Origin: Eledone cirrhosa
Taxonomy: Eukaryota
Length of the DNA: 64,000 nt
Reading direction: 5' to 3'
Assembly (NCBI GenBank): GCA_964016885.1
Contig: OZ024766.1
Span: 16,244,001-16,308,000 of the forward strand
Part shown: positions 3,088 through 62,775 of the stretch, in pieces
Layout: each line of letters starts with the position of its first letter
Numbering within the stretch: position 1 is the stretch's first letter
Made by a program: the position numbers and the translations under genes
Notes under the pieces: model-generated
The model's database searches: none
The model's input: the letters and a program-made list of their open reading frames with translations, nothing else
Told to the model about the DNA's origin: nothing

Positions 3088-4770
<1,683 letters not shown>

Positions 4771-5335: not shown

Positions 5336-5344
5336 ATATATATT

Positions 5345-11810: not shown

Positions 11811-12985
11811 GTCATGTTGAATGTTTTTCATGATGTTGTGGTAGGCATATTTCTGGTCATCCACCAGTCAAGGTTTATTTTGATCCACAAACTTACGCAA
11901 CACTTCAATATCATGGTTTGTCTCCTGAAAAACTGATTGTGTTACCTCAATTTCTTCTGGCTCTGGCATCCCGCATTGCTATTCATTGCTGGAATTCAAT
12001 GGGACAGTTTGCACAGAGGTTGATTGTAAATCCTGGAGGTAGATTCCACATAAATATTGCTATAACATCTTTGGTCTAGGTGTAGATAGTCGTCTGACAT
12101 ATTGTTTTTGTGCTCCTTCCAGGGTAGATGAGATTTATTCCACATGCTGTGAGTATAGTAGGAAACAACTGTCTTATTTAACTGGCTACTCCAGTGACTG
12201 CTCCTTCTAGTACCTTCTCCCAATGTCAGTTGTCATACAGGTGTCCATGGCCATCTTATTTAACTGGCTACTCCAGTGTCTGCTCCTTCTCGTCTCTTCT
12301 TCCAATGCCAGTTGTCATACAGGAGTCCATGGCTGTCTTATTTAACTGGCTACTCCAGTTACTGCTCCTTCTAGTCTCTTCTTCCAATGTCAGTTGTCAT
12401 ACAGGTGTCCATGGCTGTCTTATTTAACTGACTACTCCAGTGACTGCTCCTTCTAGTCTCTCTTTCCAATGTCAGTTGTCATACAGAAGTCCATGGCTGT
12501 CTTATTTAACTGGCTACTCCAGTGACTGCTCCTTCTAGTCTATTCTTCCAATGTCAATTGCCATGCAGGAGTTGATGTTCTTTAGATGCTTCTTGGTATG
12601 TGCTGCACTCTTCCACCAAATCACCTGAGATCCTCAAATGACGTTGGTCCTTGAACAATATGCAGAAGTGGCTGTAAATAAAAACTCTCTCTGTCGTTGG
12701 GTTGTCATTGTAAACATGCCCAATAGCATCACTTGCCTTGACTTCATCACCTTCCACTAAATGACCCTGCTTCCTTTGATTCCAAGTCTTACAATTGGTC
12801 CAGGTGTAGTATTTTGGGATGTCAGCATATAGGAGGGATCGAACAAATTCTTTATTCTGGCAGTGTTTCAAAAAAGCAGTTAGAGTAGTGTCAGGTGGTG
12901 CTGGTGTCAACTGATGAGCAGTGGTTTCAGTGAAGTACACACTCTGTCCATTTTCTATATGTATAGAGATAAGGATGAAAAGCAA
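11811..12985 (-). mobile_element. Helitron RepHel internal fragment (between the Rep and Pif1-helicase domains), decayed
   Basis: IHIENGQSVYF...TTLTAF...LLYADIPKYYTW...WNQRK...IGHVY..HP...ESFYL..LL.IV.GPTSFEDLR...TY.EA...LL.....HW...IRQLF.TIL...MSDD...DQKYAY matches the conserved Helitron linker and stops before Walker A. Copies at ~21381-22460, 29446-31760, 38539-42736, 49050-52003 and 60740-63186. Confidence 0.85.
12169..12576. repeat. 82-bp minisatellite, 5 copies
   Basis: Unit ccatggctgtcttatttaactggctactccagtgactgctccttctagtc(c/t)cttcttccaatgtcagttgtcatacagg(t/a)gt. Confidence 0.95.
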
Positions 12986-18303: not shown

Positions 18304-18438
18304 CAAAGTCATATCTCATTGTCTCAAAATTGTAAATTAATTAGACACAAATACATTCATATGAGTGAAGTCATACCACTGTGATATTGCGGAGAAATTG
18401 TTCTCTTGTATTGCTACATTAACTACATACAAACATAA

Positions 18439-18573
<135 letters not shown>

Positions 18574-19104: not shown

Positions 19105-19143
<39 letters not shown>

Positions 19144-21738: not shown

Positions 21739-22050
21739 CTGTCTTATTTAACTGACTGCTCCTTCTAGTCCCTTCTTCCAATGTCAGTTGTCATACAGGT
21801 GTCCATGGCTGTCTTATTTAACTGGCTACTCCAGTGACTGCTCCTTCTAGTCCCTTCTTCCAATGTCAGTTGTCATACAGGTGTCCATGGCTGTCTTATT
21901 TAATTGGCCACTCCAGTGACTGCTCCTTCTAGTCTCTTCTTCCAATGTCAGTTGTCATACAGGAGTCCATGGCTGTCTTATTTAACTGGCTACTCCAGTG
22001 ACTGCCCCTTCTTGTCTCTTCTTCCAATGTCGATTGCCATGCAGGAGTTG
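21739..22050. repeat. 82-bp minisatellite, 4 copies (one 70-bp variant)
   Basis: Same unit as 12169-12576. Confidence 0.93.
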
Positions 22051-28626: not shown

Positions 28627-28658
<32 letters not shown>

Positions 28659-29445: not shown

Positions 29446-31355
29446 TACTCCAGTGACTGCACCTTCTAGTCTCTTCTGCCAATGTCAGTTGTCATACAGG
29501 AGTTCATGGATGTCTTATTTAACTGACTGCTCCTTATAGTGCCTTCTTCCAATGTCAGTTGACATACAGGAGTCCATGGATGTCTTATTTAACTGACTGC
29601 TCCTTCTAGTCCCTTCTTCCATTGTCAGTTGTCATACAGGTGTCCATGGCCATATTATTTAACTGGCTACTCCAGTGATTGCTCCTTCTAGTCCCTTCTT
29701 CCAATGTCAGTTGACATAAAGTTATCCATGGCTGTCTTATTTAACTGGCTACTCCAGTGATTGCTCCTTCTAGTCCCTTCTTCCAATGTCAGTTGACATA
29801 AAGTTATCCATGGCTGTCTTATTTAACTGACTGCTCCTTTTAGTCCCTTCTTCCAATGTCAGTTGTCATACAGGAGTCCATGGCTGTCTTATTTAACAGG
29901 CTACTCCAGTGACTGCTCCTTCTAGTCCCTTCTTCCAATGTCAGTTGTCATACAGGAGTCCATGGCTGTCTTATTTAACTGGCTACTCCAATGATTGCTC
30001 CTTCTAGTCTCTTCTTCCAATCTCAGTTGTCATACAGGTGTCCATGGCTGTCTTATTTAACTGGCTACTCCAGTGACTGCTCCTTCTAGTCCCTTCTTCC
30101 AATGTTAGTTGTCATACAGGAGTCCATGGCTGTCTTATTTAACTTGCTACTCCAATGATTGCTCCTTCTAGTCTCTTCTTCCAATCTCAGTTGTCATACA
30201 GGTGTCCATGGCTGTCTTATTTAACTGGCTACTCCAGTGACTGCTCCTTCTAGTCCATTCTTCCAATGTTAGTTGTCATACAGGAGTCCATGGCTGACTT
30301 ATTTAACTGGCTACTCCAGTGACTGCTCCTTCTAGTCCCTTCTTCCAATGTCAGTTGTCATACAGGAGTCCATGGCTGTCTTATTTAACTGGCTACTCCA
30401 GTGACTGCTCCTTCTAGTCCCTTCTTCCAATGTTAGTTGTCATACAGGAGTATCTGGCTGTCTTATTTAACTGGCTACTCCAGTGACTGCTCCTTCTAGT
30501 CCCTTCTTCCAATGTCAGTTGTCATACAGGAGTCCATGGCTGTCTTATTTAACTGGCTACTCCGGTGACTGCTCCTTCTAGTCCCTTCTTCCAATGTCAG
30601 TTGTCATACAGGAGTCCATGGCTGTCTTATTTAACTGGCTACTCCAGTGATTGCTCCTTCTAGTCTCTTCTTCCAATGTCAGTTGTCATACAGGTGTCCA
30701 TGGCTGACTTATTTAACTGGCTACTGCAGTGACTGCTCCTTCTAGTCTCTTCTTCCAATGTCAGTTGTCATACAGGTGTCCATGGCTGTCTTATTTAACT
30801 GGCTACTCCAGTGACTGCTCCTTCTAGTCTCTTCTTCCAATGTCAGTTGTCATACGGGTGTCCATGGCTGTCTTATTTAACTGGCTACTCCAGCGTCTGC
30901 TCCTTCTAGTCTCTTCTTCCAAAGTCAGTTGTCATATAGGTGTCCATGGCTGACTTATTTAACTGGCTACTCCAATGACTACTCCTTCTAGTCCCTTCTT
31001 CCAATGTCAGTTGTCCTACAGGAGTCCATGACTGTCTTATTTAACTGGCTATTCCAGTGACTGCTCCTTCTAGTCTCTTCTTCCAATGTCAATTGTCATA
31101 CAGGTGTCCATGGCTGTCTTATTTAACTGGCTACTCCAGATACTGCTCCTTCTAGTCTCTTCTTCCAATATCAGTTGTCATACAGGTGTCCATGGCTGTC
31201 TTATTTAACTGGCTACTCCAGGGACTGCTCCTTCTAGTCCCTTCTTCCAATGTCAGTTGTCATACAGGAGTCCATGGCTGTCTTATTTAACTGGCTACTC
31301 CAGTGACTGCTCCTTCTTGTCTCTTCTTCCAATGTCAATTGCCATGCAGGAGTTG
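29446..31355. repeat. 82-bp minisatellite, ~23-24 copies
   Basis: Same unit, with three 70-bp variants. The left flank is deleted. Confidence 0.95.
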
Positions 31356-34993: not shown

Positions 34994-35935
34994 ATGGAAA
35001 ATAAATTGAGTGAAAAGAAGATTAAATGTGAAACAATGTCTAAACATATGGCTATTACAGAAGAGATGTCAAAGGATAGAGGAGAGAAACCATATCACTG
35101 TGATGTCTGTGGTAAATCATTCTCTCTAAGTCGTATATTAATTTGTCACATACGTACCCATACAGGTGACAAACCATATCACTGTGATATCTGTGGTAAA
35201 TCATTCTCTCAAAGTAGTACCTTAACTACACACAAACATATACATACAGGAGACAAGCCTTATCACTGTGATATCTGTGGTAAATCATTCTCTTTTAGTA
35301 GTAATTTAACTTCTCACATACGTACTCATACAGGAGACAAGCCTTATCACTGTGATATCTGTGGTAAATCATTCTTTAATAATATTAGTTTAACTAGACA
35401 CGAACGTACCCATTCAGGAGAGAAGCCATATCACTGTGATATCTGTGGTAAATCATTCTTTGTTAATAGTAATTTAACTAGACACAAAAGTATACATACA
35501 GGAGAGAGGCCATATCACTGTGATATCTGTGGTAAATCATTCTCTCAAAGTGGTCACTTAACTAGCCACAAACGTATACATACAGGAGAGAAGCCATATC
35601 TCTGTGATATCTGTGGTAAATCATTCTCTGATAGGAGTACCTTAACTAACCACAAACGTGTACATACAGGAGACAAGCCATATCACTGTGATATCTGTAG
35701 TAAATCATTCTCTGAAAGTGGTAACTTAACTAGCCACAAACGTATCCATACAGGAGAGAAGCCATATCACTGTCATATCTGTGGTATATCATTCTCTCAA
35801 AGTAGTCACTTAACTAAGCACTTACGTATCCATACAGGAGACACGCCATACCACTGTGATATCTGTGGTAAATCATTCTCTCAATTAAGTAATTTAACTA
35901 AACACAAATATACCCATACAGGTAAGAAACCATAA
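34994..35935 (+). CDS. C2H2 zinc-finger protein, 10 fingers
   Basis: 313-aa ORF of tandem C2H2 repeats. Confidence 0.95.
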   Translation: MENKLSEKKIKCETMSKHMAITEEMSKDRGEKPYHCDVCGKSFSLSRILICHIRTHTGDKPYHCDICGKSFSQSSTLTTHKHIHTGDKPYHCDICGKSFSFSSNLTSHIRTHTGDKPYHCDICGKSFFNNISLTRHERTHSGEKPYHCDICGKSFFVNSNLTRHKSIHTGERPYHCDICGKSFSQSGHLTSHKRIHTGEKPYLCDICGKSFSDRSTLTNHKRVHTGDKPYHCDICSKSFSESGNLTSHKRIHTGEKPYHCHICGISFSQSSHLTKHLRIHTGDTPYHCDICGKSFSQLSNLTKHKYTHTGKKP

Positions 35936-36072
35936 CAAAGTCATATCTCATTGTCTCAAAATTGTAAATTAATTAGACACAAATACATTCATATGAGTGA
36001 GAAGCTATACCACCGTGATATTGTGGAGAAATTATTCTCTTGTATTGCTACATTAACTACATACAAACATAA

Positions 36073-36234
<162 letters not shown>

Positions 36235-38143
36235 TAACATTTACAGAAAAGGAATCATATCATTGTGATATCTGCAGTAAATCATTCTCTAAATGTGGCT
36301 TCACTACACACTAACATATACAGGAGAGGAACCATATCACTGTGATGTCTGTGGTAAATCCTTCTCTAAATGTTGTGGTTTCTCTAGACACTAACATATA
36401 CAGGAGAGGAACCATATCACGGTGATGTCTGTGGTAAATCCTTCTCTAAAAGTTGTGGTTTCTCTAGATACTAACATATACAGGAGAGGAACCATATCAC
36501 TGTGATGTCTGTGGTAAATCATTCTCTAAATGTTGTGGCTTCACTAGACACTAACATATACAGGAGAGGAACCATATCACTGTGATATCTGTGGTAAATC
36601 ATTTTCTAAATGTTGTGGTACCAACATAAGGTTACTTAATGTAACACAAACACAATCAGACAAGATAAAAACCATGTCACTCACCCAAAATAGTGCCACC
36701 AATGTTGTTAATGTCTTGAATAAAACTTGTTTGTTCTGAAATTATTCTCCTTTCATTTTATTTGTAGAAGTTGTAACCAAGACTTATGCTGACAAATCTG
36801 TATGGTACAGAATTTACAAACACTATATATATATATATATATATATGTGCCAAAACATCTATGATCTCGGTTTACAGCTGATGAAGGGTTTCTTCTCTCC
36901 TTTCATCCATATTACCATCTTAAACTTTGTTTACAGTAACCACACAACTCCTTTCGTTTCTTATGATTTTATATATATATATAACAAAGGAGGTGTGGTA
37001 AAGAACCAGATGGACCATATACGCACCAGAGTACTCAATACTTACGGTAGTAGAGTGGGTAATAGGAAAATGTTTAACCCCGACGGCAGAGCTCAATCTG
37101 TTTCGACGGCTATTTCTGGAAACAGTCCAGAAATAACCATCGAAATGGCTTGAGCTCTGCCGTCGGGGTTAAACATTTTCCTATATATATATATATATAT
37201 ATGTATGAGTGTATATCTCAGTGTGTAGAAATTTCTGTCCATGAAAATGACTATCTTTATTTGTGTATATATATGTGTGTATATGTATGTGTATGTTTAT
37301 GTGTTCTTATATACGTGTGTGCACATCTTGATGTATTTTCAGTGTCTGTTCTAGTCCTCAGAGTACAAATCCCACTGAGGTAAAGTTGCTTCGTTATTTT
37401 GAGGTCAATAAATGAAATACCAGTGAAATACTGGGGGTGTGGGGTTAATTCCTCTTCTTTGTCATTGTCTGTTTGTCTACTCTTCTCTTTCTCTGTATAT
37501 ATATATATATATATCCAAAATTAAGATAAATAAAATTAATCTATATCAAATTATGGGTGTCTGCCAGAAAGACAGGCGCCATATCACTCGTAAAATAAGG
37601 TCCATGGAGCTTATTTCATGAGCGATATGGCGCCTGTCTTATTGGCATGACACCCATGATACGATTCAGATTAATTTCATTTTAATTTATCTTAATTTTG
37701 GATATATATATATATAAATAGGGCCTCTTAATTGTAGAGCTAACTCTGTTGAAAGGACCTGACTGCTGTTTCTAGTTGTCAATAACCCTATTCACGCAAC
37801 TGGGACGAAGCTGGTATGATGTGTGTATTTTTAGTAGATACAGCACGTGTTACTGGTCAGTCGCTGATTTGAACTTGATGCGTAAACACAGATGGTTGGA
37901 CTTCTTCCTTGTTGAGAATCCAAGATCTGGCTACTGTCGTTTACCAATCGATTAATTGGTGAAATATATTTCTTTAATGGAATATATACAAGGAAGATTA
38001 ATCATTTTCTAAGGTATCTATTTTTGAAGTTCTAGTTAAACTTTATTTAGTTACCTACCTAGCTATGTGTGCTTACACACTTTTACAAATTATCCCCTGT
38101 GATTGTTTCATATGTTTATTTATATGTCAATCAATTTCTAGTT

Positions 38144-38183
<40 letters not shown>

Positions 38184-38896
38184 CGTGGAAAAGTAAAATA
38201 TAGCAGAACAGACCGTTAAAAGATGTTTATTGAAAATAGCACCTATGTAATGAAGACATGACAAATTGTCCTCGCGCTCTCTCTATATATAGAGAAAAGG
38301 TGAAGTTGGAAATAGCACGGAAAATATATTTTAGGGTCTGTTTTTCTGTTATTTATCTTTTGGTTCGTCAAAGTGACATTATTGAAAATATGGGAGGGAC
38401 ATCATCATTCATCATCATTTCATTTCACGTCCGCTTTCTCCCTGCTTGCAAGGGTGGGACGGGAACTGATTCTGGCTTGATATCTACAGATGGATGCCCG
38501 TCTTAACGCCAACCTCACTTACAGTGAGTGCTGGGTACTGTCATGTTGAATGTTTTTCATGATGTTGTGGTCGGCATATTTCTGGTCATCCACCAGTCAA
38601 GGTTTATTTTCATCAACAAACTTACGCAACACTTCAATATCATGGTTTGTCTCCTGAAAAACTGATTGTATTACCTCAATTTCTTCTGGTTCTGGCATCC
38701 CGCATTGCTATTCATTGCTGGAATTCAATGAGGAGGTTGCACAGAGATTGATTGTAAATCCTGGAGGTAGATTCCACATAAATATTGCTATAACATCTTT
38801 GGGCTAGGTGTAGATAGTCGTCTGACATATTCTTTTTGTACTCCTGCCAGGGTAGATGAGATTTATTCCAGATGCTGTGAGTATAGTAGCAAACAA

Positions 38897-41800
38897 CTGT
38901 CTTATTTAACTGGCTACTCCAGTGACTGCTCCTTCTAGTCCCTTCTTCCAATGTCAGTTGTCATACAGGTGTCCATGGCTGTCTTATTTAACTGGCTACT
39001 CCAGTGACTGCTCCTTCTAGTCCCTTCTTCCAATGTTAGTTGTCATACAGATGCCCATGGCTGTCTTATTTAACTGGCCACTCCAGTGACTGCTCCTTCT
39101 AGTCTCTTCTTCCAATGTCAGTTGTCATACAGGTGTCCATGGCTGTCTTACTTAACTGGCTACTCCAGTGACTGCTCCTTCTAGTCTCTTCTTCCAATGT
39201 CAGTTGTCATACAGGTGTCCATGGCTGTCTTATTTAACTGGCCACTCCAGTAACTGCTCCTTCTAGTCTCTTCTTCCAATGTCAGTTGTCATACAGGTGT
39301 CCATGGCTGTCTTACTTAACTGGCTACTCCAGTGACTGCTCCTTCTAGTCTCTTCTTCCAATGTCAGTTGTCATACAGATGCCCATGGCTGTCTTATTTA
39401 ACTGGCCACTCCAGTGACTGCTCCTTCTAGTCTCTTCTTCCAATGTCAGTTGTCATACAGGTGTCCATGGCTGTCTTACTTAACTGGCTACTCCAGTGAC
39501 TGCTCCTTCTAGTCTCTTCTTCCAATGTCAGTTGTCATACAGGTGTCCATGGCTGTCTTATTTAACTGGCTACTCCAGTAACTGTTCCTTCTAGTCTCTT
39601 CTTCCAATGTCAGTTGTCATACAGGTGTCCATGGCTGTCTTATTTAACTGGCCACTCCAGTGACTGCTCCCTCTAGTCCCTTCTTCCAATGTCAGTTGTC
39701 ATACAGGAGTCCATGGCTGTCTTATTTAACTGGCTACTCCAGTGACTGCTCCTTCTAGTCCCTTCTTCCAATGTCAGTTGTCATACAGGAGTCCATGGCT
39801 GACTTATTTAACTAGCTACTCCAGTGACTGCTCCTTCTAGTCCCTTCCTCCAATGTCAGTTGTCATACAGGTGTCCATGGCTGTCTTATTTAACTGGCTA
39901 CTCCAGTGACTGCTCCCTCTAGTCCCTTCTTCCAATGTCAGTTGTCATACAGGTGTCCATGGCTGTCTTATTTAACTGTCCACTCCAGTGACTGCTCCTT
40001 CTAGTCTCTCTTTCCAATGTCAGTTGTCATACAGGAGTCCATGGCTGTCTTATTTAACTGGCTACTCCAGTGACTGCTCCTTCTAGTCCATTCTTCCAAT
40101 GTCAGTTGTCATACAGGAGTCCATGGCTGTCTTATTTAACTGGCTACTCCCGTGACTGCTCCTTGTAGTCTCTTCTTCCAATGTCAGTTGTCATACAGGA
40201 GTCCATGGCTGTCTTATTTAACTGGCTACTCTAGTGACTGCTCCTAGTCTCTTCCAATGTCAGTTGTCATACAGGTGTCCATGGCTGTCTTATTTAACTG
40301 GCTACTCCAGTGACTGCTCCTTCTAGTCCCTTCTTCCAATGTTAGTTGTCATACAGGTGCCCATGGCTGTCTTATTTAACTGGCCACTCCAGTGACTGCT
40401 CCTTCTAGTCTCTTCTTCCAATGTCAGTTGTCATACAGGTGTCCATGGCTGTCTTATTTAACTGGCTACTCCAGTGACTGCTCCTTCTAGTCCCTTCTTC
40501 CAATGTCAGTTGTCATACAGGTGTCCATGGCTGTCTTATTTAACTGGCTACTCCAGTGACTGCTCCTTCTAGTCCCTTCTTCCAATGTTAGTTGTCATAC
40601 AGGTGCCCATGGCTGTCTTATTTAACTGGCCACTCCAGTGACTGCTCCTTCTAGTCTCTTCTTCCAATGTCAGTTGTCATACAGGTGTCCATGGCTGTCT
40701 TACTTAACTGGCTACTCCAGTGACTGCTCCTTCTAGTCTCTTCTTCCAATGTCAGTTGTCATACAGGTGTCCATGGCTGTCTTATTTAACTGGCTTCTCC
40801 AGTGACTGCTCCTTCTAGTCTCTTCTTCCAATGTCAGTTGTCATACAGGTGTCCATGGCTGTCTTATTTAACTGGCCACTCCAGTGACTGCTCCCTCTAG
40901 TCCCTTCTTCCAATGTCAGTTGTCATCCAGGAGTCCATGGCTGTCTTATTTAACTGGCTACTCCAGTGACTGCTCCTTCTAGTCCCTTCTTCCAATGTCA
41001 GTTGTCATACAGGAGTCCATGGATGTCTTACTTAACTGGCTACTCCAGTGACTGCTCCTTCTAGTCTCTTCTTCCAATGTCAGTTGTCATACAGAAGTCC
41101 ATGGCTGTCTTATTTACCTGGCTACTCCAGTGACTGCTCCCGCTAGTCCCTTCTTCCAATGTCAATTGTCATACAGGTGTCCATGGCTGTCTTATTTAAC
41201 TGGCTACTCCAGTGTCTGCTCCTTCTAGTCCCTTCTTCCAATGTCAGTTGTCATACAGGTGTCCATGGCTGTCTTATTTAACTGGCTACTCCAGTGACTG
41301 CTCCTTCTAGTCCCTTCTTCCAATGTCAGTTGTCATACAGGTGTCCATGGCTGTCTTATTTAACTGTCCACTCCAGTGACTGCTCCTTCTAGTCTCTCTT
41401 TCCAATGTCAGTTGTCATACAGGAGTCCATGGCTGTCTTATTTAACTGGCTACTCCAGTGACTGCTCCTTCTAGTCCCTTCTTCCAATGTCAGTTGTCAT
41501 ACAGGAGTCCATGGCTGTCTTATTTACCTGGCTACTCCACTGACTGCTCCTTGTAGTCCCTTCTTCCAATGTCAGTTGTCATACAGGTGTCCATGGCTGT
41601 CTTATTTAACTGGCTACTCCCGTGACTGCTCCTTGTAGTCTCTTCTTCCAATGTCAGTTGTCATACAGGAGTCCATGGCTGTCTTATTGAACTGGCTACT
41701 CTAGTGACTGCTCCTAGTCTCTTCCAATGTCAGTTGTCATACAGGTGTCCATGGCTGTCTTATATAACTAGCTACTCCAGTGATTGCTCTTTCTAGTCTA

Positions 41801-42325
41801 TTCTTCCAATGTCAGTTGTCATACAGGAGTCCATGGCTGTCTTATATAACTGGCTACTCCAGTGACTGTTCCTTCTAGTCTCTTCTTCCAATGTCAGTTG
41901 TCATACAGGAGTCCATGGCTGTCTTATTTAACTGGCTACTCCAGTGACTGTTCCTTCTAGTCCCTTCTTCCAATGTCAGTTGTCATACAGGTGTCCATGG
42001 CTGTCTTATTTAATTGGCCACTCCTGTGACTGCTCCTTCTAGTCCCTTCTTCCAATGTCAGTTGTCATACAGGAGTCCATGGCTGTATTATATAACTGGC
42101 TACTCCAGTGACTGTTCCTTCTAGTCTCTTCTTCCAATGTCAGTTGTCATACAGGAGTCCATGGCTGTCTTATATAACTGGCTACTCCAGTGACTGTTCC
42201 TTCTAGTCTCTTCTTCCAATGTCAGTTGTCATACAGGAGTCCATGGCTGTCTTATTTAACTGGCTACTCCAGTGACTGCCCCTTCTTGTCTCTTCTTCCA
42301 ATGTCAATTGCCATGCAGGAGTTGA
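38897..42325. repeat. 82-bp minisatellite, ~42 copies
   Basis: ccatgg recurs every 82 bp (38973, 39055, ...) over ~3.4 kb. Confidence 0.96.
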
Positions 42326-45300
42326 TGTTCTTTAGATGCTTCTCGGTATGTGCTGCACTCTCCCTCCAAATCACCTGAGATCCTCAAATGACGTTGGTCC
42401 TTGAACAATATGCAGAAGTGGCTGTAAATAAAAACTCTCTCTGTTGTTGGGGTGGTCATTGTAAACATGCCCAATAGCATCACTTGCCTTGACTTCATCA
42501 CCTTCCACTAAATGACCCTGCTTCCTTTGATTCCAAGTCTTACAATTGGTCCATGTGTAGTATTTTGGGATGTCAGCATATAGGAGGGATCGAACAATTT
42601 CTTTATTCTGGCAGTGTTTCAAAAAAGCAGTTAGAGTAGTGTCAGGTGGTGCTGGTGTCAACTGATGAGCAGTGGTTTCAGTGAAGTACACACTCTGTCC
42701 ATTTTCTATATGTATAGAGATAAGGATGAAAAGCAAAGTTAATCCCTCAGAGGTTAGCTTTGCCTTTCATCCCTACGGGGTCGGTAAAATAAAGTACCAG
42801 TAATGTACTAGGGTATTGCTGGCCTTGTGCCTAATGTAGAAACAATTATTACGGGGTCGATAAAATAAAGTACCAGTAATTCACTGGGGTATTTACTGGC
42901 CTTGTGCCTAAAGTAGAAACAATTATTACGGGGTTGATAAAATAAAGTACCAGTAATACACTGGTGGAATTGCTGGCCTTGTGCCAAAATTAGAAACAAT
43001 TATCACATTTCTTTTTAATAAATCACATCACTATAGAATTAAATACGACTGGAAATGTCTGTGAAGGTACTAAATTATGTCAGGGACTTGTCACGTTTGA
43101 CACCGTACGAGAGTCGAAACATTCGCTAAGACACCGAGTACCTGCTGTCTTCGTTATAACTTTAATTAATCTAATTATATCTTGTGTAACAATTATATAT
43201 ATATACACACACACAATTTTAATACCCCGACACCAGTCTTACACTGTCATATCTATTCTTACTTTACAATTGTGTCTACTAAGAGTTCCATTACAATCTA
43301 TAGTAGTAAAACTACTATTTCACCAGAACATCTGCTCTCAGTCATTTATAGACAATATATATATATTTTAGACCACATATCAACCTAATATATATATTTC
43401 CTATCAAATCTGTAGCTAAAGACATAAAGTCAGCCTCACTACTTCATTCTGACAAGATATCAATTTATGACTAAAGATGAAGAAGATACACCAACGTTAA
43501 TGTCGTGAAATAAAGCTGATAACATTGAAACTTCTAATTTGATAACAAAGAGATTATTTCTTTGGTTGTTTAGTAACAACTAACAACACAATACCTTGAT
43601 TATATGTGAAGGAGGTAAGTTGACAAAGATTTACTTAATCTCTATATTAATGTGTGTAAATAATATAATTATGTGACCCCTACAACGACCAGTAATTAAC
43701 CAGATTCCACTGTTACATGTGATATAAAATATATTGTTATCATGACTGTCTTTATTATCTAAATTACCTCCGTCTATTTAATTATCTTGTTCACTACCTT
43801 ACATTATAAAATATAGTTTATATTTAGCTGTACCTTCTTATTGCTTTAAGTAAGTTAAGGATATATTTATTATTTAAATTACCTCCGTCTATTTAATTAT
43901 CTTGTTCACTACCTTACATTATAAAATATAGTTTATATTTAGCTGTACCTTGTCATTGCTTTAAGTAAATTAAAGATATATTTATTATTTAAATTACCTC
44001 CGTCTATTTAATTATGTGGTTCACTACCTTACATTATAAAATATAGTTTATATTTAGCTGTACCTTGTTGTTGCTTTAAGTAAATTAATATTTTGTGGAT
44101 TTTAGTCTAAACCTCTTACAATTTAATTAACTTCATCTACTTATGGTTGAACATTACTTTATTGTGGGTTTCATTTCATTATAATTATGTCTGAGTTAGC
44201 CAGCCAAGTAGGGGTTGAGTATCTGTATTTCAGGGCACTGCTTTGATGGTGAAGGGACATCTGTTGGTGTGGGATCTCGGTGGCTGTACATACTAAGGTT
44301 CTAATACTCTAAAGAGCTAGCTGAATAACCGTCTGATACATGTCTTGTATACAGGATCATAAAGCCATGTATAGAAGAGCAGTCAGCAATGTCAGGATTA
44401 ACATTCATTATAGTGAAGTGGCAGTATCGGTAGAGAGTCGGACACCATGCTTTGAGGCACAGAGTTACGTCCCTTTGTGATCTGAGTTCACATCCAGCCG
44501 AGGTTAACTTTGCCTTACATCCATACAGGGTCGATAAAATAAAGTACCAGTAATGTACTGGTTAATTGCTGGCCTTGTGTTTAAAATAGAAACAATTATA
44601 GTGAATAATTTGGAGTGTAGTCTGGTGTCCACCAGGGCTCTGTTCTTAGCCCTCACTTAGTTATTATCGTCCTGCAGCCTATAACAGAGATGTTTAAGAC
44701 TGGCTGCCCATGGGCACTCCTGTATGCTCAGCAGGTCCTGAAGAATGCGATCATGTGCATTTTCAAGGTCTATAAAACGATAATATATACCTCTTAGCAA
44801 TACTCCCACGATTTCTCAAAGACCTGCCACAGTGTGAATATTTGGTGGGTTATGTTGCACCCAGGGAGAAAACAGCACTGTCCATCAGCTAGCTTCGACT
44901 CGCTACATCACTTTGCCAGAAACTTAGCATATACTTTACCAGGGAGGCTTAACAAGGTGATCCCTCTCTATTTGGAACAATCTCTCGTGTCTACCTTTTT
45001 ATAAATTGGGATTATTACTCCCGAGTGCCATTTCAGAGACCCAGGCTACCTGACACACATGAGTCGGTCACATTTGAGCTCTTTAATTGCTCTTGTGACC
45101 TCAGCCTCCGAGAGATTAGTCACCGCTATCAGATTCACCTCATGTACATCCGAAGATGCTGTTGTGATCGGGTTTGGGAGATCAGCAAAGTATTCTCTCC
45201 ACCTCATGAGGATCCATCTCTCTGAAGAGAAGAGAACCCCAGATGCACTCATGGTTGCAGGTGCGGAGGAAGAATTCTTGTAACTAATTAAAAACTAAAA

Positions 45301-45787
45301 TAATTTGATTTTTCAATAAAAAGTTTCCAGGGTTTATAGATGTAAAATTTCCACTGTTAAATCTATCTCTGCTTCTTAAGTATTCTCTATTATCTCATAC
45401 TGTTTCTTTTTCATTTCAGAATATCAGATGACATTGGGATAAATTATTATTTTCAATCTTGGATACATCACCTCTATTTATCATCATTTGAAGAGTAAAA
45501 CTTTTTAAACAGAACTTATATAACACTGTTTATACAAATCTATCATATATTTCCTCAGAACTGAGTTTAAAGCCAAAATTTCTTTTCTTCACTGTGTGGT
45601 GTATATATGAGATATATATTTTGTATTTTAACTCAGCTTCAATGACAAAGAAGTTTGCATCATCTTCAGGTATTAACTGAGATCATAATTGAGCGAAATA
45701 TAACAGAAGAAATATTTTTTAGGAATATAATATAAAAAATATTAAAGAATAACATCTGTAAATTCTGCCAAGGGAAGAAGAATTATT

Positions 45788-47065
45788 ATGGAAAATAAAT
45801 TGAGTGAAAAGAAGATTAAATGTGAAACAATGACTAAAGATATGGCTATTACAGAAGAGATGTCAAAGGATAGAGGAGAGAAGCCATATCACTGTGATGT
45901 GTGTGGTAAATCATTCTCTCAAAGTAGTACCTTAACTAGACACAAACGTACACATACGGGAGAGAAGCCATACCACTGTGATATCTGTGGTAAATCATTC
46001 TCTCATAGTAGTAATTTAACTAGCCACATGCGTATACATACAGGTGACGAACCACATCACTGTGATATCTGTGGTAAATCATTCTCTCGAAGTATTATAT
46101 TAACTAGCCACATGCGTATACATACAGGTGACAAGCCATATCACTGTGATATCTGTGGTAAATCATTCTCTCATAGTAGTAATTTAACTAGCCACATGCG
46201 TATACATACAGGTGACAAGCCATATCACTGTGATATCTGTGGTAAATCATTCTCTCGAAGTATTATATTAACTAGCCACATGCGTATACATACAGGTGAC
46301 AAGCCATATCACTGTGATATCTGTGGTAAATCATTCTCTGAAAGTGGTCACTTAACTAGCCACAAACGTACACATACAAGAGAGAAGCCATATCACTGTG
46401 ATATCTGTGGTAAATCATTTTCTCAGAGTAATGCCTTAACTAGACACAAACGTATACATACAGGAGACACGCCATATCACTGTGATATCTGTGGTAAATC
46501 ATTCTCTGAAAGTGGTAACTTAACTAGCCACAAACGTATACATCCGGGAGACAAGCCGTTTCACTGTGATATCTGTGGTAAATCATTCTCTGATAGTAGT
46601 ACATTAACTAGACACAAACGTACACATACAGGAGAGAAGCCATATCACTGTGATATCTGTGGTAAATCATTCTCTGAAAGTAGTACCTTAACTAGCCACA
46701 AACGTATCCATACAGGTGAGAAGCCATACCACTGTGATATCTGTGGTAAATCGTTCTCTCAAAGTAGTCACTTAACTAAACACATACGTATCCATACAGG
46801 AGACACGCCATATCACTGTGATATCTGTGGTAAATCATTCTCTCAAAGTAGTAACTTAACTAGCCACAAACTTATACATACAGGAGACAAGCCATACCAC
46901 TGTGATATCTGTGGTAAATCATTCTCTCAAAGTAGTCCCTTAACTCAACACTTACGTATCCATACAGGTGAGAAGCCACATCACTGTGATATCTGTGGTA
47001 AATCATTCTCTCAATTAAGTTATTTAACTAAACACAAATTTACCCATACAGGTAAGAAACCATAA
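45788..47065 (+). CDS. C2H2 zinc-finger protein, 14 fingers
   Basis: 425-aa ORF of tandem C2H2 repeats. Confidence 0.95.
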
Positions 47066-49049
47066 CAAAGTCATATCTCATTGTCTCAAAATTGTAAATT
47101 AATTAGACACAAATACATTCATATGAGTGAGAAGCCATACCACTGTGATATTGTGGAGAAATTATTCTCTTGTATTGCTACATTAACTACATACAAACAT
47201 AAATATATACTGGAGAAAAGCCATATCACTGTGATATCTGTGGGAAATTGTTATCTATAAAAGCTAGCTTAACTAGACACAAACATATATATACAGGAGA
47301 GAAACTATATCACTGTGATATCTGTGGGAAATCATTCTCTGAAATAAGTCACTTCACTCAGCACTAACATTTACAGAAAAGGAACCATATCACTGTGATA
47401 TCTGCAGTAAATCATTCTCTAAATGTTGTGACTTCACTAGACACTAACATATACAGGAGATGAACTATATCACTGTGATGTCTGTGGTAAATCATTTTCT
47501 AAATGTTCTGGTACCAACATAAGGTTACTTAATGTAACACAGACACAATCAGACAAGATAAAAACCATGTCACTCACCCAAAATAGTGCCACCAATGTTG
47601 TTAATGTCTTGAATAAAACTTGTTTGTTCTGAAATTATTCTCCTTTCATTTTATTTGTAGAAGTTGTAACCAAGACTTGTGCTGACAAATCTATATGGTA
47701 CAGAATTTACAAACACTGTATATATATATATGTGCCAAAACATCTATGATCTCGGTTTACAGCTGATGAAGGGTTTCTTCTCTCCTTTCATCCATATTAC
47801 CATCTTAAACTTTGTTTACAGTAACCACACAGCTCCTTTCGTTTCTTATAATTTTATATATATATGACAAAGTAAGTGTGGTAAAGAACCAGATGGACCA
47901 TATACGCACCAGAGTACTCGATACTTAGGGTAGTAGAGCGGGTAATAGGAAAATGTTTAACCCCGACGGCAGAGCTCAGTCCGTTTCGACGGCTATTTCT
48001 GGAAACAGTCCAGAAATAACCGTCAAAATGGCTTGAGCTCTGCCGTCGGGGTTAAACATTTTCCTATATATATATATATATATATATATGTATGAGTGTA
48101 TATGTCAGTGTGTAGAAGTTTCTGACCATGAAAATGATTATCTGTATTTGTGTATATGTGTGTGTGTATATATGTATGTGTATGTTTATATGTGTTCTTA
48201 TATACATGTGTGCACATCTTGATATATTTTCAGTGTCTGTTCTAGTTCTCAGAGTACAAATCCCACTGAGGTAAATTTGCTTCGATATTTTGAGGCCAAT
48301 AAATGAAATACCAGTGAAATACTGGGGTGGTTAATTACTCTTCTTTGTCATTGTCTGTTTGTCTACTCTTCTCTTTCTCTGTATTTATATATATATATCC
48401 AAAATTAAGATAAATTAAAATAAAATTAATGTAAATCAAATTATGGGAGTCATGCCAGAAAGACATGTGACATATCACCCGTAAAATAAGCTCCATGGAG
48501 CTTATTTTATGGGTGATATGGCGCATGTCTTTCTGGCATGCCACCCATAATTTGATATAGATTAATTTTATTTTAATTTATCTTAATTTTGGATATATAT
48601 ATATATAAATAGGGCCTCTTAATTGTAGAGCTAACTCTGTTGAAAGAACCTGACTGCTGTTTCTAGTTGTCAATAACCCAATTCACGCCACTGGGACGAA
48701 GCTGGTATGATGTGTGTATATTTAGTAGATACAGCACGTGTTACTGGTCAGTCGCTGATTTGAACTTGATGCGTAAACACAGATGGTTGGACTTCTTCCT
48801 TGTTGAGAATCCAAGATCTGGCTACTGTCGTTTACCAATCGATTAATTGGTGAAATATATTTCTTTAATGGAATATATACAAGGAAGATTAATCGTTTTC
48901 TAAGGTATCTATTTTTGAAGTTCTAGTTAAACTTTATTTAGTTACCTACCTAGCTATGTGTGCTTACACACATTTACAAATTATCCCCTGTGATTGTTTC
49001 ATATGTTTATTTATATGTCAATCAATTTCTAGTTGATATATATATATAT

Positions 49050-51590
49050 CCATGGCTGTCTTATTTAACTGACTACTCCAGTGACTGCTCCTTCTAGTCT
49101 CTTCTTCCAATGTCAGTTGTCATACAGGTGTCCATGGCTGTCTTATTTAACTAGCTACTCCAGTGACTGCTCCTTCTAGTCCCTTCTTCCAATGTCAGTT
49201 GTCATACAGGTGTCCATGGCCATATTATTTAACTGGCTACTCCAGTGACTGCTCCTTCTAGTCTCTTCTTCCAATGTCAGTTGTCATACAGGAGTCCATG
49301 GCTGTCTTATTTAACTGGCTACTCCAGTGACTGCTCCTTCTAATCCCTTCTTCCAATGTCAGTTGTCATACAGGTGTGCATGGCTGTCTTATAAAACTAG
49401 CTACTCCAGTGACTGCTCCTTCTAGTCCATTCTTCCAATGTCAGTTGTCATACAGGTGTCCATGTCTGACTTATTTAACTGGCTACTCCAGTGACTGCTC
49501 CTTCTAGTCCCTTCTTCCAATGTCAGTTGTCATACAGGAGTCCATGGCTGTCTTATTTAACTGGCTACTCCAGTGATTGCTCCTTCTAATCCCTTCTTCC
49601 AATGTCAGTTGTCATACAGGTGTGCATGGCTGTCTTATAAAACTAGCTACTCCAGTGACTGCTCCTTCTAGTCCATTCTTCCAATGTCAGTTGTCATACA
49701 GGTGTCCATGGCTGTCTTATTTAACTGGCTACTCCAGTGACTGCTCCTTCTGGTCCCTTCTTCCAATGTCAGTTGTCATACAGGAGTCCATGGCTGTCTT
49801 ATTTAACTGGCTACTCCAGTGATTGCTCTTTCTAGTCTCTTCTTCCAATGTCAGTTGTCATACAGTTGTCCATGGCTGTCTTATTTAACTGGCTACTCCA
49901 GTGATTGCTCTTTCTAGTCTCTTCTTCCAATGTCAGTTGTCATACAGGTGTCCATGGCTGTCTTATTTAACTAGCTACTCCAGTGACTGCTCCTTCTAGT
50001 CCCTTCTTCCAATGTCAGTTGTCATACAGGTGTCCGTGGCCATATTATTTAACTGGCTACTCCAGTGTCTGCTCCTTCTAGTCCCTTCTTCCAATGTCAG
50101 TTGTCATACAGGTGTCCATGGCTGTCTTATTTAACTAGCTACTCCAGTGACTGCTCCTTCTAGTCTCTTCTTCCAATGTCAGTTGTCATACAGGTGTCCA
50201 TGACTGTCTTATTTAACTGGCTACTCCAGTGACTGCTCCTTCTAGTCCCTTCTTCCAATGTCAGTTGTCATACAGGTGTCCATGGCTGTCTTATTTAACT
50301 GTCCACTCCAGTGACAGCTCCTTCTAGTCTCTCTTTCCAATGTCAGTTGTCATACAGGAGTCCATGGCTGTCTTATTTAACTGGCTACTCCAGTGACTGC
50401 TCCTTCTAGTCTCTCTTTCCAATGTCAGTTGTCATACAGGAGTCCATGGCTGTCTTATTTAATTGGCCACTCCAGTGACTGCTCCCTCTAGTCCCTTCTT
50501 CCAATGTCAGTTGTCATACAGGAGTCCATGGCTGTCTTATTTAACTGGCCACTCCAGTGACTGCTCCTTCTAGTCTCTCTTTCCAATGTCAGTTGTCATA
50601 CAGGAGTCCATGGCTGTCTTATTTAACTGGCTACTCCAGTGACTGCTCCTTCCAGTCTCTTCTTCCAATGTTAGTTGTCATACAGGTGTCCATGGCTGTC
50701 TTATTTAATTGGCCACTCCAGTGACTGCTCCCTCTAGTCCCTTCTTCCAATGTCAGTTGTCATACAGGAGTCCATGGCTGTCTTATTTAACTGGCTACTC
50801 CAGTGACTGCTCCTTCTAGTCCCTTCTTCCAATCTCAGTTGTCATACAGAAGTCCATGGCTGTCTTATTTAACTGGCTACTCCAGTGACTGCTCCTTCTA
50901 GTCCCTTATTCCAATATCAGTTGTCATATAGGTGTCCATGGCTGTTATTTAACTGGCTACTCCAGTGACTGCTCCTTCTAGTCCCTTCTTCCAATGTTAG
51001 TTGTCATACAGGTGTCCATGACTGTCTTATTTAACTGGCTACTCCAGTGACTGCTCCCTCTAGTCTCTCTTTCCAATGTCAGTTGTCATACAGGAGTCCA
51101 TGGCTGTCTTATTTAACTGGCTATTCCAGTGACTGCTCCTTCTAGTCCCTTCTTCCAATGTCAGTTGTCATACAGGTGTCCATGGCTGTCTTATTTAGCT
51201 GGCTACTCCAGTGACTGCTCCTTCTAGTCCCTTCTTCGAATGTTAGTTGTCATACAGGAGTCCATGACTGTCTTATTTAAATGGCTACTCCAGTGACTGC
51301 TCCTTCTAGTCCCTTCTGCCAATGTCAGTTGTCATACAGAAGTCCATGGCTGTCTTATTTAAATGGCTACTCCAGTGACTGCTCCTTCTAGTCTCTTCTT
51401 CCAATCGCAGTTGTCATACAGAAGTCCATGGCTGTCTTATTTAACTGGCTACTCCAGTGACTGCTCCTTCTAGTCCCTTCTTCCAATGTCAGTTGTCATA
51501 CAGGAGTCCATGGCTGTCTTATTTAACTGGCTACTCCAGTGACTGCCCCTTCTAGTCTCTTCTTCCAATATCAATTGCCATGCAGAATTT
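49050..51590. repeat. 82-bp minisatellite, ~31 copies
   Basis: Same unit, joined directly to the (TA)n tract by a deletion. Confidence 0.95.
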
Positions 51591-59900: not shown

Positions 59901-61137
59901 ATAACTAAAAAGTGTTCTTTACATGGCCCAGAATGTGTTTTTAGAGATAAGTTCACGTCAGAGTTCATTCTTCGCAAAAAAGCGTGTTTTGATGTTGCAG
60001 TAGGTCAAGGGAGGTAACTCTAGCTGGTGTTAGGGCAGTCTTTCCCGGAAAATTTTTTTATCTGTTAAAAGATATGGTTACAACCCTACCATTGTCGATA
60101 CGCACAGGGTCAGGTATGCAACGTTTGTTTGCTGCACCTGCCCGCCTGGGTCATATGAAGCCATGTCTGGGATGCATGGTTAGTTTCCGGATCTTTTTTG
60201 CAGCGCCTGCTATATATATATATATATATGAGCGAGACACGGTCACCCGAACTAACTTGCTTCTAAATACGACAAACCCGTCCAACCCATGCTAGCATGG
60301 AAGATAGACATTAATCAATGATGATGATATCTAGGGATTGTAACATTATTACCACAACAGAAGTCTGACAAGCTTTTAATTCCAGAGTCAGGCTAGATCA
60401 ATACAGATCAAACCTTGAGCTGATCGATAGCAAAACGTGCATCACTGCTCAATAAATGTAATGAAGACATGACAAATTGTCCTCTCGCTCTCTCTCTATA
60501 TATAGAGAAAAGGTGAAGTTGGAAATAGCACGGAAAATATATGTTAGGGCCTGTTTTTCTGTTACATATCTTTTGATTCGCTAAAGTGACCCTATTGAAA
60601 AAATCATCATTCATCATCATTTCATTTCACGTCCGCTTTTTCCCTGATTGCAAGGGTAGTACGGGAACTGATTGTGGCTTGATTTCTAAAGATGGATGCC
60701 CTTCCTAACGCCAACCTCATTTACAGTGAGTGCTGGGTGTTGTCATGTTGAATGTTTTTCAAGATGTTGTGGTAGGCATATTTCTGGTCATCCACCAGTC
60801 AAGGTTAATTTTCATCCACAAACTTACGCAACACTTCAATATCATGGTTTGTCTCCTGAAAAACTGATCGTATTACCTCAATTTCTTCTGGCTCTGGCAT
60901 CCTGCATTGCTATTCATTACTGGAATTCAATGGGACAGGTTGCACAGAGGTTGATTGTAAATCCTGGAGGTAGATTCCACATATATATTGCGATAACGTC
61001 TTTGGGCTAGGTGTAGATAGTCGTCTGACATATTGTTTTTGGGCTAGGTGTAGATAGTCGTCTGACATATTGTTTTTGTACTCCTGCCAGGGTAGATGAG
61101 ATGTATTCCACATGCTGTGGGTATAGTAGCAGACAAC

Positions 61138-62775
61138 TGTCTTAGTTAACTGGCTACTCCAGTGACTGCTCCTTCTAGTACCCTCTCCCAATATCAGTTG
61201 TCATACAGAAGTCCATGGCTGTCTTATTTAACTGGCTACTCCAGTGACTGCTCCCTCTAGTCCCTTCTTCCAATGTCAGTTGTCATACAGGAGTCCATGG
61301 CTGTCTTATTTAACTAGCTACTCCAGTGACTGCTACTTCTAGTCCCTTCTTCCAATGTCAGTTGTCATACAGGAGTCCATGGTTGTCTTATTTAACTGGC
61401 TACTCCAGTGACTGCTCCTTCTAGTCTCTTCTTCCAATGTCAGTTGTCATACAGGAGTCCATGGCTGTCTTATTTTACTGGCTACTCCAGTGACTGCTCC
61501 TTCTAGTCTCTTCTTCCAATGTCAGTGGTCATACAGGTGTCCATGGCTGTCTTATTTAACTAGATACTCCAGTGACTGCTCCTTCTAGTCCCTTCTTCCA
61601 ATGTCAGTTGTCATACAGGAGTCCATAGCTGTCTTATTTAACTGGCTACTCCAGTGACTACTCCTTCTAGTCCCTTTTTCCAATGTCAGTTGTCATACAG
61701 GTGTCCATGGCTGTCTTATTTAACTGGCTACTGCAGTGACTGCTCCTTCTAGTCTCTTCTTCCAATGTCAGTTGACATACAAGTGTGTCCATGGCTGTAT
61801 TATTTAACTGACTGCTCCTGTGACTGCTCCCTCTAGTCCCTTCTTCCAATGTCAGTTGTCATACAAGTGTCCATGGCTGTCTTATTTAACTGACCACTCC
61901 AGTGACTGCTCCCTCTAGTCCCTTCTTCCAATGTTAGTTGTCATACAGGTGTCACTGGCTCTCTTATTTAACTGGCTACTCCGGTGACTGCTCCTTCTAG
62001 TCCCTTCTTCCAATGTCAGTTGTCATACAGGTGTCCATGTCTGTCTTATTTAACTGGCTACTCCAGTGACTGTTCCTTCTAGTCCCTTCTTCCAATGTCA
62101 GTTGTCATATAGGTGTCCATGGCTGTCTTATTTAACTGGCTACTCCAGTGACTGCTCCTTCTAGTCCCTTCTTCCAATGTCAGTTCTCATACAGGAGTCC
62201 ATGGCTGTCTTATTTAACTGGCCACTCCAGTGACTGCTCCTTCTAGTCCCTTCTTCCAATGTCAGTTGTCATACAGGTGTCCATGGCTGTCTTATTTAAC
62301 TGGCTACTCCAGTGACTAATACTTCTAGTCCCTTCTTCCAATGTCAGTTGTCATACAGGAGTCCATGGCTGTCTTATTTAACTGGCTACTCCAGTGACTG
62401 CTCCTTCTAGTCCCTTCTTCCAATCTCAGTTGTCATATAGAAGTTCATGGCTGTCTTATTTAACTGGCTACTCCTGTGACTGCTCCCTCTAGTCCCTTCT
62501 TCCGATGTCAGTTGTCATACAGGTGTCCATGGCTGTCTTATTTAACTGGCCACTCCAGTGACTGCTCCTTCTAGTCTCTTCTTCCAATGTCAGTTGTCAT
62601 ACAGGCGTCCATGGCTGTCTTATTTAACTGGCTACTGCAGTGACTGCTCCTTCTAGTCTCTTCTTCCAATGTCAGTTGTCATACAGGAGTCCATAGCTGT
62701 CTTATTTAACTGGCTACTCCAGTGACTGCCCCTTCTTGTCTCTTCTTCCAATGTCGATTGCCATGCAGGAGTTGA
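61138..62775. repeat. 82-bp minisatellite, ~20 copies
   Basis: Same unit. Confidence 0.95.

What the first reader, a model, noticed from the sequence alone, without database searches (positions are those of the whole stretch)
38897..42325. 82-bp minisatellite born inside Helitron coding sequence, with a different length in front of every ZNF promoter
Seen: on the minus strand the unit reads HGLLYDN*HWKKRLEGAVTGVAS*IRQ, the stretch of the RepHel linker between ...TY.EA..HQLL and QLFATIL. The Helitron protein is colinear on both sides of the array. Copy number is about 5, 4, 23-24, 42, 31 and 20, and each array ends roughly 1-1.4 kb upstream of the next invariant promoter block. Known: Helitrons often seed satellites, usually from non-coding parts. 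Inferred: a coding-derived satellite caught mid-expansion, which could act as a tunable binding-site or heterochromatin array for each gene.
Basis: partly seen in the sequence, partly recalled or inferred. Interest (0 to 1): 0.7.

Follow-up and report, generated by a model that had tools for sequence, protein, structure and literature searches.

The report
Minisatellite inside a dead Helitron gene
An 82-base piece of a dead rolling-circle transposon (Helitron) gene is repeated in tandem at six matching places in a zinc-finger gene cluster; it likely arose once, was copied along with the genes, and has since grown and shrunk as a neutral passenger, with no evidence yet that its length tunes the genes.

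Summary
Six 82-bp arrays (5, 4, 24, 42, 31, 20 copies) sit inside a pseudogenised fragment of a Helitron RepHel linker. The unit maps exactly to the gap between colinear flanks, and none of 139 RepHel relatives spanning the site carries an extra unit. The downstream flank survives in only 4 of 6 copies. The interpretation needs correcting. All six arrays are paralogues of one event inside an 8-14 kb ZNF tandem duplicon (about 3% divergence). Monomers within arrays differ by 6.2% and share rare variant combinations between arrays, so the array likely predates the duplicon's spread and the short arrays are likely contractions; only the 42-copy array shows a recent block doubling. It is therefore not 'caught mid-expansion'. 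The 77-bp, 115-bp and finger repeats in the duplicon vary in number as well. The 'invariant promoter block' ends in a perfect splice donor and is probably a 5'-UTR exon. Best reading: a neutral VNTR turning over by unequal exchange in a probably octopus C2H2 cluster. The regulatory idea is untested, not excluded.

The parts
38897..42322 (-). 82-bp minisatellite array 4, 41.9 copies; unit = 27 codons of the RepHel linker (profile 143-170) plus 1 nt; strand given in Helitron sense
42247..42322 (-). edge monomer (first in Helitron sense); 8-10% from the majority unit but only 3.1% between the six arrays
38979..41754 (.). recent internal block duplication in array 4: units 2-17 (38979-40284) repeated as units 18-35 (40285-41754), including an identical deletion monomer
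   Evidence: score 55.9; 60 shuffles max 39.7
42323..42721 (-). RepHel linker upstream of the array (full-length profile about 783-915 of 1508), with a stop in all six copies and a frameshift shared by the four copies aligned
38537..38896 (-). RepHel linker downstream of the array, ending just before helicase motif I; present in units 1, 2, 4 and 6 only
12169..12572 (-). array 1, 4.9 copies; the most diverse internally (8.7%); RepHel flanks 11808-12168 and 12573-12973
21739..22048 (-). array 2, about 4 copies, first unit a 70-bp deletion variant also seen three times in array 3; RepHel flanks 21378-21738 and 22049-22445
29446..31353 (-). array 3, about 24 copies; downstream Helitron flank and about 1 kb of spacer deleted; upstream flank 31354-31747
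49049..51587 (-). array 5, 31 copies; downstream Helitron flank deleted up to a (TA)n tract; upstream flank 51590-51991
61137..62772 (-). array 6, 19.9 copies; no identical informative monomer pair and no internal block repeat; RepHel flanks about 60739-61136 and 62773-63171
36621..47511 (+). one complete tandem duplicon (unit 4): ZNF 3' flank, MITE-like palindromes, Helitron fragment with array, 77-bp repeat, putative promoter and 5'-UTR exon, 115-bp repeat, ZNF exon. Other units: 4764-18900, 18901-28421, 28422-36620, 47512-57975, 57976-end
42774..43003 (+). 77-bp tandem repeat from a dispersed repeat (single copy also at 44492-44599); 5, 7, 2, 3, 2, 3 motif copies in the six units
43001..43200 (+). 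CpG-rich patch (o/e 1.5 against 0.37 for the window); candidate promoter or TSS (inferred), 0.69-1.06 kb from the array end in the four units where it was located
43751..44088 (+). 115-bp tandem repeat in the predicted intron (3.9, 5.9, 3.9, 2.9 and 6.5 copies in units 1-5)
45746..47065 (+). C2H2 zinc-finger ORF of unit 4 (439 aa stop to stop, 14 fingers), after a splice acceptor at 45420 conserved in 6 of 6 copies. Paralogues at 3088, 16396, 26248, 34952 and 55389

Best explanation
The 82-bp array is a tandem repeat of part of a dead Helitron RepHel linker, present at six matching positions of a zinc-finger gene duplicon; it likely arose once, diversified, was copied with the genes and has since likely gained and lost units by unequal exchange and deletion as a neutral passenger. 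Step 1 (shown): an internal piece of about 0.9 kb (about 290 codons) of a Helitron1-type RepHel gene, with no Rep or helicase domain, lies between two ZNF genes and carries shared stops and a frameshift. Step 2 (junction shown, mechanism inferred): 81 nt of it were duplicated head to tail with one extra base at the junction, as in slippage or end-joining repair, so each copy shifts frame. Step 3 (inferred from divergence): the array grew, probably to 15-20 units, and diversified to about 6% between monomers while the edge monomer stayed apart. Step 4 (shown): the 8-14 kb ZNF unit was amplified in tandem (about 3%, star-like), carrying the array. Step 5 (partly shown): each copy then changed length, by a 16-17-unit block doubling in array 4, end deletions in arrays 3 and 5 and likely collapse in arrays 1 and 2, like the 77-bp, 115-bp and finger repeats beside it.
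For: Flank homology and colinearity. No extra unit in 139 of 139 spanning RepHel domains, from 244 proteins searched. The same right junction in 6 of 6 arrays and the same left junction in the 4 of 6 that keep it. Duplicon map and 3.1% pooled flank divergence. Monomers 6.2% within and 6.7% between arrays (F=0.067, p=0.0035); 41 of 100 variants occur in two or more arrays, and rare variant pairs are shared by short and long arrays. Column-bootstrap lower bounds exceed 3.1% in 5 of 6 arrays. None of 123 monomers lacks both stop codons. Block duplication in array 4, and 14 identical informative pairs within arrays against 1 between. The 77-bp repeat, 115-bp repeat and finger number (10-22) vary just as freely. 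No credible unit match outside the six arrays (126 of 127 hits inside, the other a 13-nt match).
Against: Neutrality is inferred from the absence of a signal, not measured; there are no expression, chromatin or population data. The higher monomer diversity could partly come from faster mutation in arrays or from later exchange between arrays rather than from age; array 2 (2 monomers) and array 4 without its two common variant columns (4.2%) are close to the flank value. Monomer order does not align between arrays, so the ancestral length is an estimate. Monomers are significantly, though weakly, more alike within arrays, so local turnover is real and ongoing. No closely related Helitron was found (best 59-62%), so the exact ancestral junction and whether other genomic copies carry the array are unchecked.
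Confidence: 0.8

Rival explanations
1. Tunable cis-element: array length sets expression of the next ZNF through repeated protein-binding sites or an H3K9me3/piRNA domain, possibly bound by the cluster's own ZNFs.
For: The array ends 0.69-1.06 kb from a CpG-rich candidate promoter in the four units located and 1.05-1.42 kb from the conserved exon-like block; it is retained in all six units and its length varies tenfold. Precedent: Helitron-supplied heat shock elements rewire genes in Caenorhabditis (PMC6927752, abstract and passages).
Against: Proximity follows from the compact head-to-tail cluster (the previous gene's putative poly(A) signal is 0.9-7.3 kb away). Neighbouring repeats vary in the same way. 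CpG o/e is 0.02-0.06, so there is little substrate for CpG methylation. No HSE core occurs in any array. Length changes look like deletion and block-doubling accidents. Copy number shows no relation to finger number, but n=5 has no power.
Confidence: 0.1
2. Rolling-circle amplification from cryptic ends: after the first duplication each monomer, read on the + strand, looks like a mini-Helitron (TC ... hairpin ... CTAG) and was amplified by a RepHel supplied in trans.
For: Each intact unit has a 5-bp hairpin 11 nt before CTAG followed by TC; the same pattern occurs in 32 of 3000 dinucleotide shuffles and 14 of 1295 window 82-mers. These are the HLE1 end signals (PMC11417382 passages), and rolling-circle tandemisation is described (PMC12628747 passages).
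Against: The pattern was noticed after the fact, lies antisense to RepHel and has a weak stem (dimer fold z=-1.5). It is not conserved (2.38 variant events per column against 2.06 elsewhere) and is intact in only 69 of 117 monomers. Array ends are not in the TC...CTAG phase. There are no dispersed monomers in the window, and the one clear expansion is a 16-17-unit block. PMC11417382 itself warns that such signals give many false positives.
Confidence: 0.04
3. The array was already part of a non-autonomous Helitron family and came in with it, like the minisatellite-bearing Heli2Xen, DINE-1 or Helentron elements.
For: Monomer diversity is older than the duplicon, so the early growth could have happened elsewhere. 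Minisatellite-rich Helitrons are documented (PMC12001565 passages).
Against: No convincing Helitron 3' end was found near the fragment and no other RepHel piece lies in the window. The fragment is internal and bounded by other repeats. Only the window could be searched.
Confidence: 0.1
4. Assembly or haplotype artefact: the arrays and their length differences come from collapsed or expanded repeats.
For: Long tandem repeats are hard to assemble, and no reads were available.
Against: 98 of 117 full monomers are distinct and the differences are mostly substitutions. Identical multi-variant monomers recur in order in array 4. The six units have different finger sets and private indels and insertions.
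Confidence: 0.03

Closest known systems
Helitron-borne minisatellites (Xenopus Heli2Xen 166-bp arrays, Drosophila DINE-TR1, oyster Helentron central repeats)
   Same: A tandem array of about 80-170-bp units inside Helitron-derived DNA with variable copy number (PMC12001565 passages; PMC12628747 passages; PMC6947457 passages).
   Different: Those arrays lie at the ends or centre of mobile elements and spread with them. This one lies inside the RepHel reading frame of a terminus-less fossil and, within the window, spread only by segmental duplication of the host gene.
Satellites derived from transposon coding regions (gag or pol of LTR retrotransposons; central parts of DNA transposons)
   Same: A protein-coding stretch of a transposable element becomes the monomer (PMC12628747, passage in section 3).
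   Different: The source is a Helitron Rep-helicase linker; the array is short (at most 3.4 kb) and still has both original flanks in 4 of 6 copies. No paper describing this exact source came up in my searches, which cover only the open-licence library.
Helitron-supplied transcription-factor site arrays (Caenorhabditis HSE Helitrons)
   Same: Repeated sequence in Helitron DNA close to genes (PMC6927752, abstract and passages).
   Different: There, binding and induction were measured and the insertions are independent. Here there is one insertion, no HSE core and no functional data.
Short tandem repeats flanking expanded C2H2 clusters (octopus 70-90-bp repeat; human beta satellite in ZNF clusters)
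   Same: An approximately 80-bp tandem repeat beside each gene of a tandem C2H2 cluster. Recalled from the 2015 Octopus bimaculoides genome paper, which I could not read; three searches did not retrieve the statement. The C2H2 expansion and clustering itself is in PMC9068888, PMC12513265 and PMC12988792 (passages).
   Different: I cannot tell whether the published repeat is this 82-mer, the 77-bp repeat or the degenerate 78-86-bp finger repeats; all occur in this window. None of those three main texts mentions Helitrons or satellites.

Membership tests
Helitron1 (HLE1) element | RepHel homology | tested here: met
   94 hits, best 59%; full-length profile positions 782-1073 of 1508
Helitron1 (HLE1) element | intact RepHel ORF with Rep and PIF1 helicase domains | tested here: not met
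   only the linker is present, with shared stops and frameshifts, and it ends before helicase motif I
Helitron1 (HLE1) element | 5' TC and 3' hairpin-CTRR ends inserted at A|T | tested here: not met
   no hairpin-CTRR-T on the RepHel strand near the fragment in any unit; the scan was simple and old ends may have decayed
Helitron-borne minisatellite (Heli2Xen/DINE-TR1/Helentron type) | array between conserved element ends, outside the RepHel frame | tested here: not met
   the array is inside the RepHel frame of a terminus-less fragment
Helitron-borne minisatellite (Heli2Xen/DINE-TR1/Helentron type) | dispersed by transposition to unlinked loci | not testable with these tools
   only the window is searchable; within it there is no unit outside the six paralogous arrays
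Minisatellite / VNTR | head-to-tail units of 10-100 bp in arrays of up to a few kb | tested here: met
   82-bp period, 0.3-3.4 kb
Minisatellite / VNTR | variable copy number with variant units and block duplications | tested here: met
   4-42 copies among paralogues; block doubling in array 4
Minisatellite / VNTR | allelic length polymorphism | not testable with these tools
   only one assembled haplotype is available
Classical satellite DNA | long arrays (tens of kb or more) | tested here: not met
   the longest array is 3426 bp; other loci are unchecked
Classical satellite DNA | heterochromatic state | not testable with these tools
   no chromatin data; the arrays are CpG-poor, o/e 0.02-0.06
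Helitron-supplied TF-site array (HSE type) | recognised factor motif repeated in each unit | tested here: inconclusive
   no HSE core in any array; no other motif library was available
Helitron-supplied TF-site array (HSE type) | binding and an effect on neighbouring gene expression | not testable with these tools
   needs ChIP and expression data

The most novel reading that the evidence does not exclude
A fossil transposase exon became a length dial for a transposon-silencing gene family: the cluster's own zinc-finger proteins (or a piRNA/H3K9me3 system) recognise the Helitron-derived unit, so that 4 versus 42 copies sets the output of each ZNF paralogue and unequal exchange retunes it.
Probability: 0.07. 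Interest if true: 0.75.

Novelty: new variant of a known kind. Interest (0 to 1): 0.3.

Why it matters
As it stands, it is an unusually clean record of minisatellite birth. The unit, both breakpoints and the single-copy ancestral state can be read against a protein family, and six paralogues record gain and loss from one starting array. It may also identify the source of one of the short tandem repeats said to flank octopus C2H2 genes (recalled, unverified). If length did tune expression, it would link transposon decay to dosage control in the largest cephalopod transcription-factor family, and the six near-identical promoters with 4-42 copies would be a ready-made test. Nothing found here shows such a function.

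Tried and rejected
Pfam scan of the Helitron ORF: no family hit, since the linker lies between the modelled domains. Rfam gathering scan of the window: 0 matches. Monomer-alone profile score: not significant against shuffles. Search for further RepHel pieces or Helitron ends that would make the whole ZNF duplicon a gene-capturing Helitron: none, so rolling-circle origin of the duplicon was rejected for lack of support. Monomer-order alignment between arrays: no better than shuffles in all pairs; self-alignment significant only for array 4 (array 3: 22 of 60 shuffles as good; array 5: 4 of 60). Arrays as recombination breakpoints between duplicons: not shown; the clearest haplotype switch (units 1 and 2 sharing variants) starts at the 77-bp repeat, and informative sites are few. 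Copy number against finger number or 115-bp copies: rho -0.10 and -0.36, n=5, uninformative. The conservation P-value of 0.003 used too high a background rate; the corrected value is 0.018. A close host-lineage Helitron was sought and not found (best 59% and 62%). Taxon: the LINE search gave almost only unnamed hits; among 14 named ZNF hits compared, the four highest finger-level identities were Octopus (0.68-0.77), but two Octopus proteins scored 0.67 and 0.50 against 0.53-0.67 for others, so 'octopus' is likely, not shown. Monomer statistics used 117 internal full units and left out the edge units, partial units, the 70-bp unit at 21739 and the left end of array 3 before 29580. The rest of the genome, and the viral and metagenome contig collections, stayed unchecked. 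No supplementary files were read; repeat tables in cephalopod genome supplements may already list this unit.
Full report
What is there. Tandem Repeats Finder and a wrap-around decomposition give six arrays of an 82-bp unit: 12169-12572, 21739-22048, 29446-31353, 38897-42322, 49049-51587 and 61137-62772, with about 5, 4, 24, 42, 31 and 20 copies. The window is a head-to-tail cluster of C2H2 zinc-finger genes, with six ORFs of 327-687 aa and 10-22 fingers. Finger-level identity points to an octopus, but not decisively (inference).

Helitron origin. The 114-aa frame at 42374-42715 (minus strand) matches 94 of 148 candidate proteins, many with Helitron_like_N and PIF1 domains, best 59% identity; a full scan of cluster representatives gave 1119 hits, best 62%. 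With a 340-column profile from 64 of the 94 proteins, the upstream flank covers positions 9 to about 142 in all six copies, the unit's best place is 143, and the downstream flank covers 171-299. The unit alone is not significant against shuffles, so the argument rests on the flanks. The downstream flank scores 95-115 (25 shuffles each, max 29-35) in arrays 1, 2, 4 and 6 and at null level in arrays 3 and 5, where two different deletions run into the array. Of 244 proteins searched, 139 domains span both anchors: 134 have exactly 69 residues there and none has an extra 27. The ancestral state is therefore single-copy. On a full-length profile the fragment covers only positions 782-1073 of 1508, the linker between Rep and helicase; no other RepHel piece or convincing end signal lies nearby.

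It was dead first. All six upstream flanks share one stop, the four downstream flanks share another, and the four aligned copies share a frameshift. In the monomers, 119 of 123 have a stop at the first site and 113 of 123 at the second, and none lacks both. Two edge monomers still read CGA at the first site, so that stop is likely CpG decay. The unit is 81 nt of coding sequence plus one base at the junction. The repeat arose in a fossil and never encoded a repeat protein (inference from these lesions).

One birth, six copies. Masked self-comparison shows that the whole 8-14 kb unit is a tandem duplicon: 3' flank, spacer, Helitron fragment with array, 77-bp repeat, putative promoter and 5'-UTR exon, 115-bp repeat, ZNF exon. 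Pooled divergence is 3.1% and mostly singletons. The right junction is the same in 6 of 6 arrays and the left in the 4 that retain it. No unit occurs outside the arrays, bar one 13-nt chance match.

Not caught mid-expansion. The 117 internal full monomers differ by 6.2% within and 6.7% between arrays (F=0.067, p=0.0035), while the six edge monomers differ by 3.1%, like the flanks. Column-bootstrap lower bounds exceed the flank value in 5 of 6 arrays. Of 100 variants, 41 occur in two or more arrays, and rare pairs are shared between the short and long arrays; the 5-copy array is the most diverse (8.7%). A 70-bp deletion unit is shared by arrays 2 and 3, though it removes a hairpin and could recur. 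The simplest reading is that a diversified multi-unit array existed before the duplicon spread and that the short arrays are remnants; faster mutation or later exchange between arrays may contribute. Recent growth is clear only in array 4, where units 2-17 are repeated as 18-35 (score 55.9, 60 shuffles max 39.7; 13 of the 14 identical informative within-array pairs). Array 6 has no such pairs and looks static. This pattern fits unequal exchange and deletion (established knowledge of minisatellite turnover).

The promoter claim. It is 1.1% divergent (P=0.018, one of 11 segments; 37861-38140 is as conserved) and ends in a consensus donor present in 5 of 5 copies, matched by a conserved acceptor before the ZNF exon in 6 of 6. 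It is more likely a 5'-UTR exon. A CpG-rich patch at 43001-43200 is a better promoter candidate, but no TSS can be shown. The 77-bp repeat (2-7), the 115-bp repeat (2.9-6.5) and finger number (10-22) also differ in every unit, so differing length is a property of the duplicon, not a sign of regulation. The arrays are almost CpG-free (o/e 0.02-0.06) and lack HSE cores. A regulatory effect remains possible and untested.

A curiosity. Read antisense to RepHel, each unit has a 5-bp hairpin, then CTAG, then TC, like a head-to-tail Helitron junction. About 1% of shuffles and of window 82-mers show this, but it is post hoc, not conserved and intact in only 69 of 117 units. I give rolling-circle amplification 0.04.

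Against what is known. Helitron-borne minisatellites are well documented, at element ends or centres (PMC12001565, PMC12628747, PMC6947457; passages read). Satellites from gag, pol and internal transposon segments are also known. I found no paper on a minisatellite from a RepHel reading frame (searches; open-licence library only). From memory, the 2015 octopus genome paper reported a 70-90-bp tandem repeat enriched beside C2H2 genes; I could not read it, and three cephalopod papers searched by keyword do not mention Helitrons or satellites. It works like a transposon-derived VNTR; it is not a member of the mobile Helitron-borne class on the features testable here.

Verdict. Real and correctly identified in origin, but a single old event hitch-hiking on a gene duplicon, with no evidence of function. 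New variant of a known kind; interest 0.3.

Noticed in passing
window 7467-10580 (+): Intact 1037-aa non-LTR retrotransposon ORF (endonuclease, RT, PHD finger) present only in duplicon unit 1; relatives up to 70% identical, almost all unnamed. A 680-bp inverted piece of its 3' end lies at 5339-6019, 96.8% identical.
   Followed up: partly
window 37861-38140 and paralogues at 6581, 20142, 48752, 59197: A 280-bp spacer block only 1.2% divergent (P=0.006 uncorrected), CpG o/e about 0.9, upstream of the array and deleted in unit 3. It could be an exon or promoter; if it is the ZNF first exon, the array would be intronic.
   Followed up: partly
each 82-bp unit, + strand: 5-bp hairpin, 11 nt, then CTAG|TC, resembling a tandem Helitron junction antisense to RepHel; about 1% by chance, not conserved.
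   Followed up: yes
window 61001-61078: A perfect 37-bp tandem duplication in the downstream Helitron flank of unit 6 only: a second, very young repeat birth in the same fossil.
   Followed up: no
window 13023-13364, 22498-22991, 42774-43003, 52041-52197, 63224-63453: A 77-bp tandem repeat made from a dispersed repeat that also occurs singly in the ZNF intron (44492-44599, about 85% identical). It resembles an octopus SINE (recalled, untested). It is longest where the 82-bp array is shortest (n=6).
   Followed up: partly
units 1 and 2, about 13400-16000 and 23030-25900: These two units share many variants from the 77-bp repeat through the intron but none in the Helitron flank, which suggests a conversion or crossover breakpoint near the 77-bp repeat.
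   Followed up: partly
window 37062-37184 and 37496-37720: Two palindromic MITE-like elements in the spacer of the duplicon.
   Followed up: no
ZNF ORFs at 3088, 16396, 26248, 34952, 45746, 55389: The paralogues reuse a small set of finger types in shuffled order and number (10-22 fingers), each followed by a tail of degenerate, out-of-frame finger repeats.
   Followed up: no
window 1-1046: The first ZNF lacks the usual upstream blocks within the window; other sequence, with a 131-bp duplication at 794-1041, joins directly to the 115-bp repeat.
   Followed up: partly
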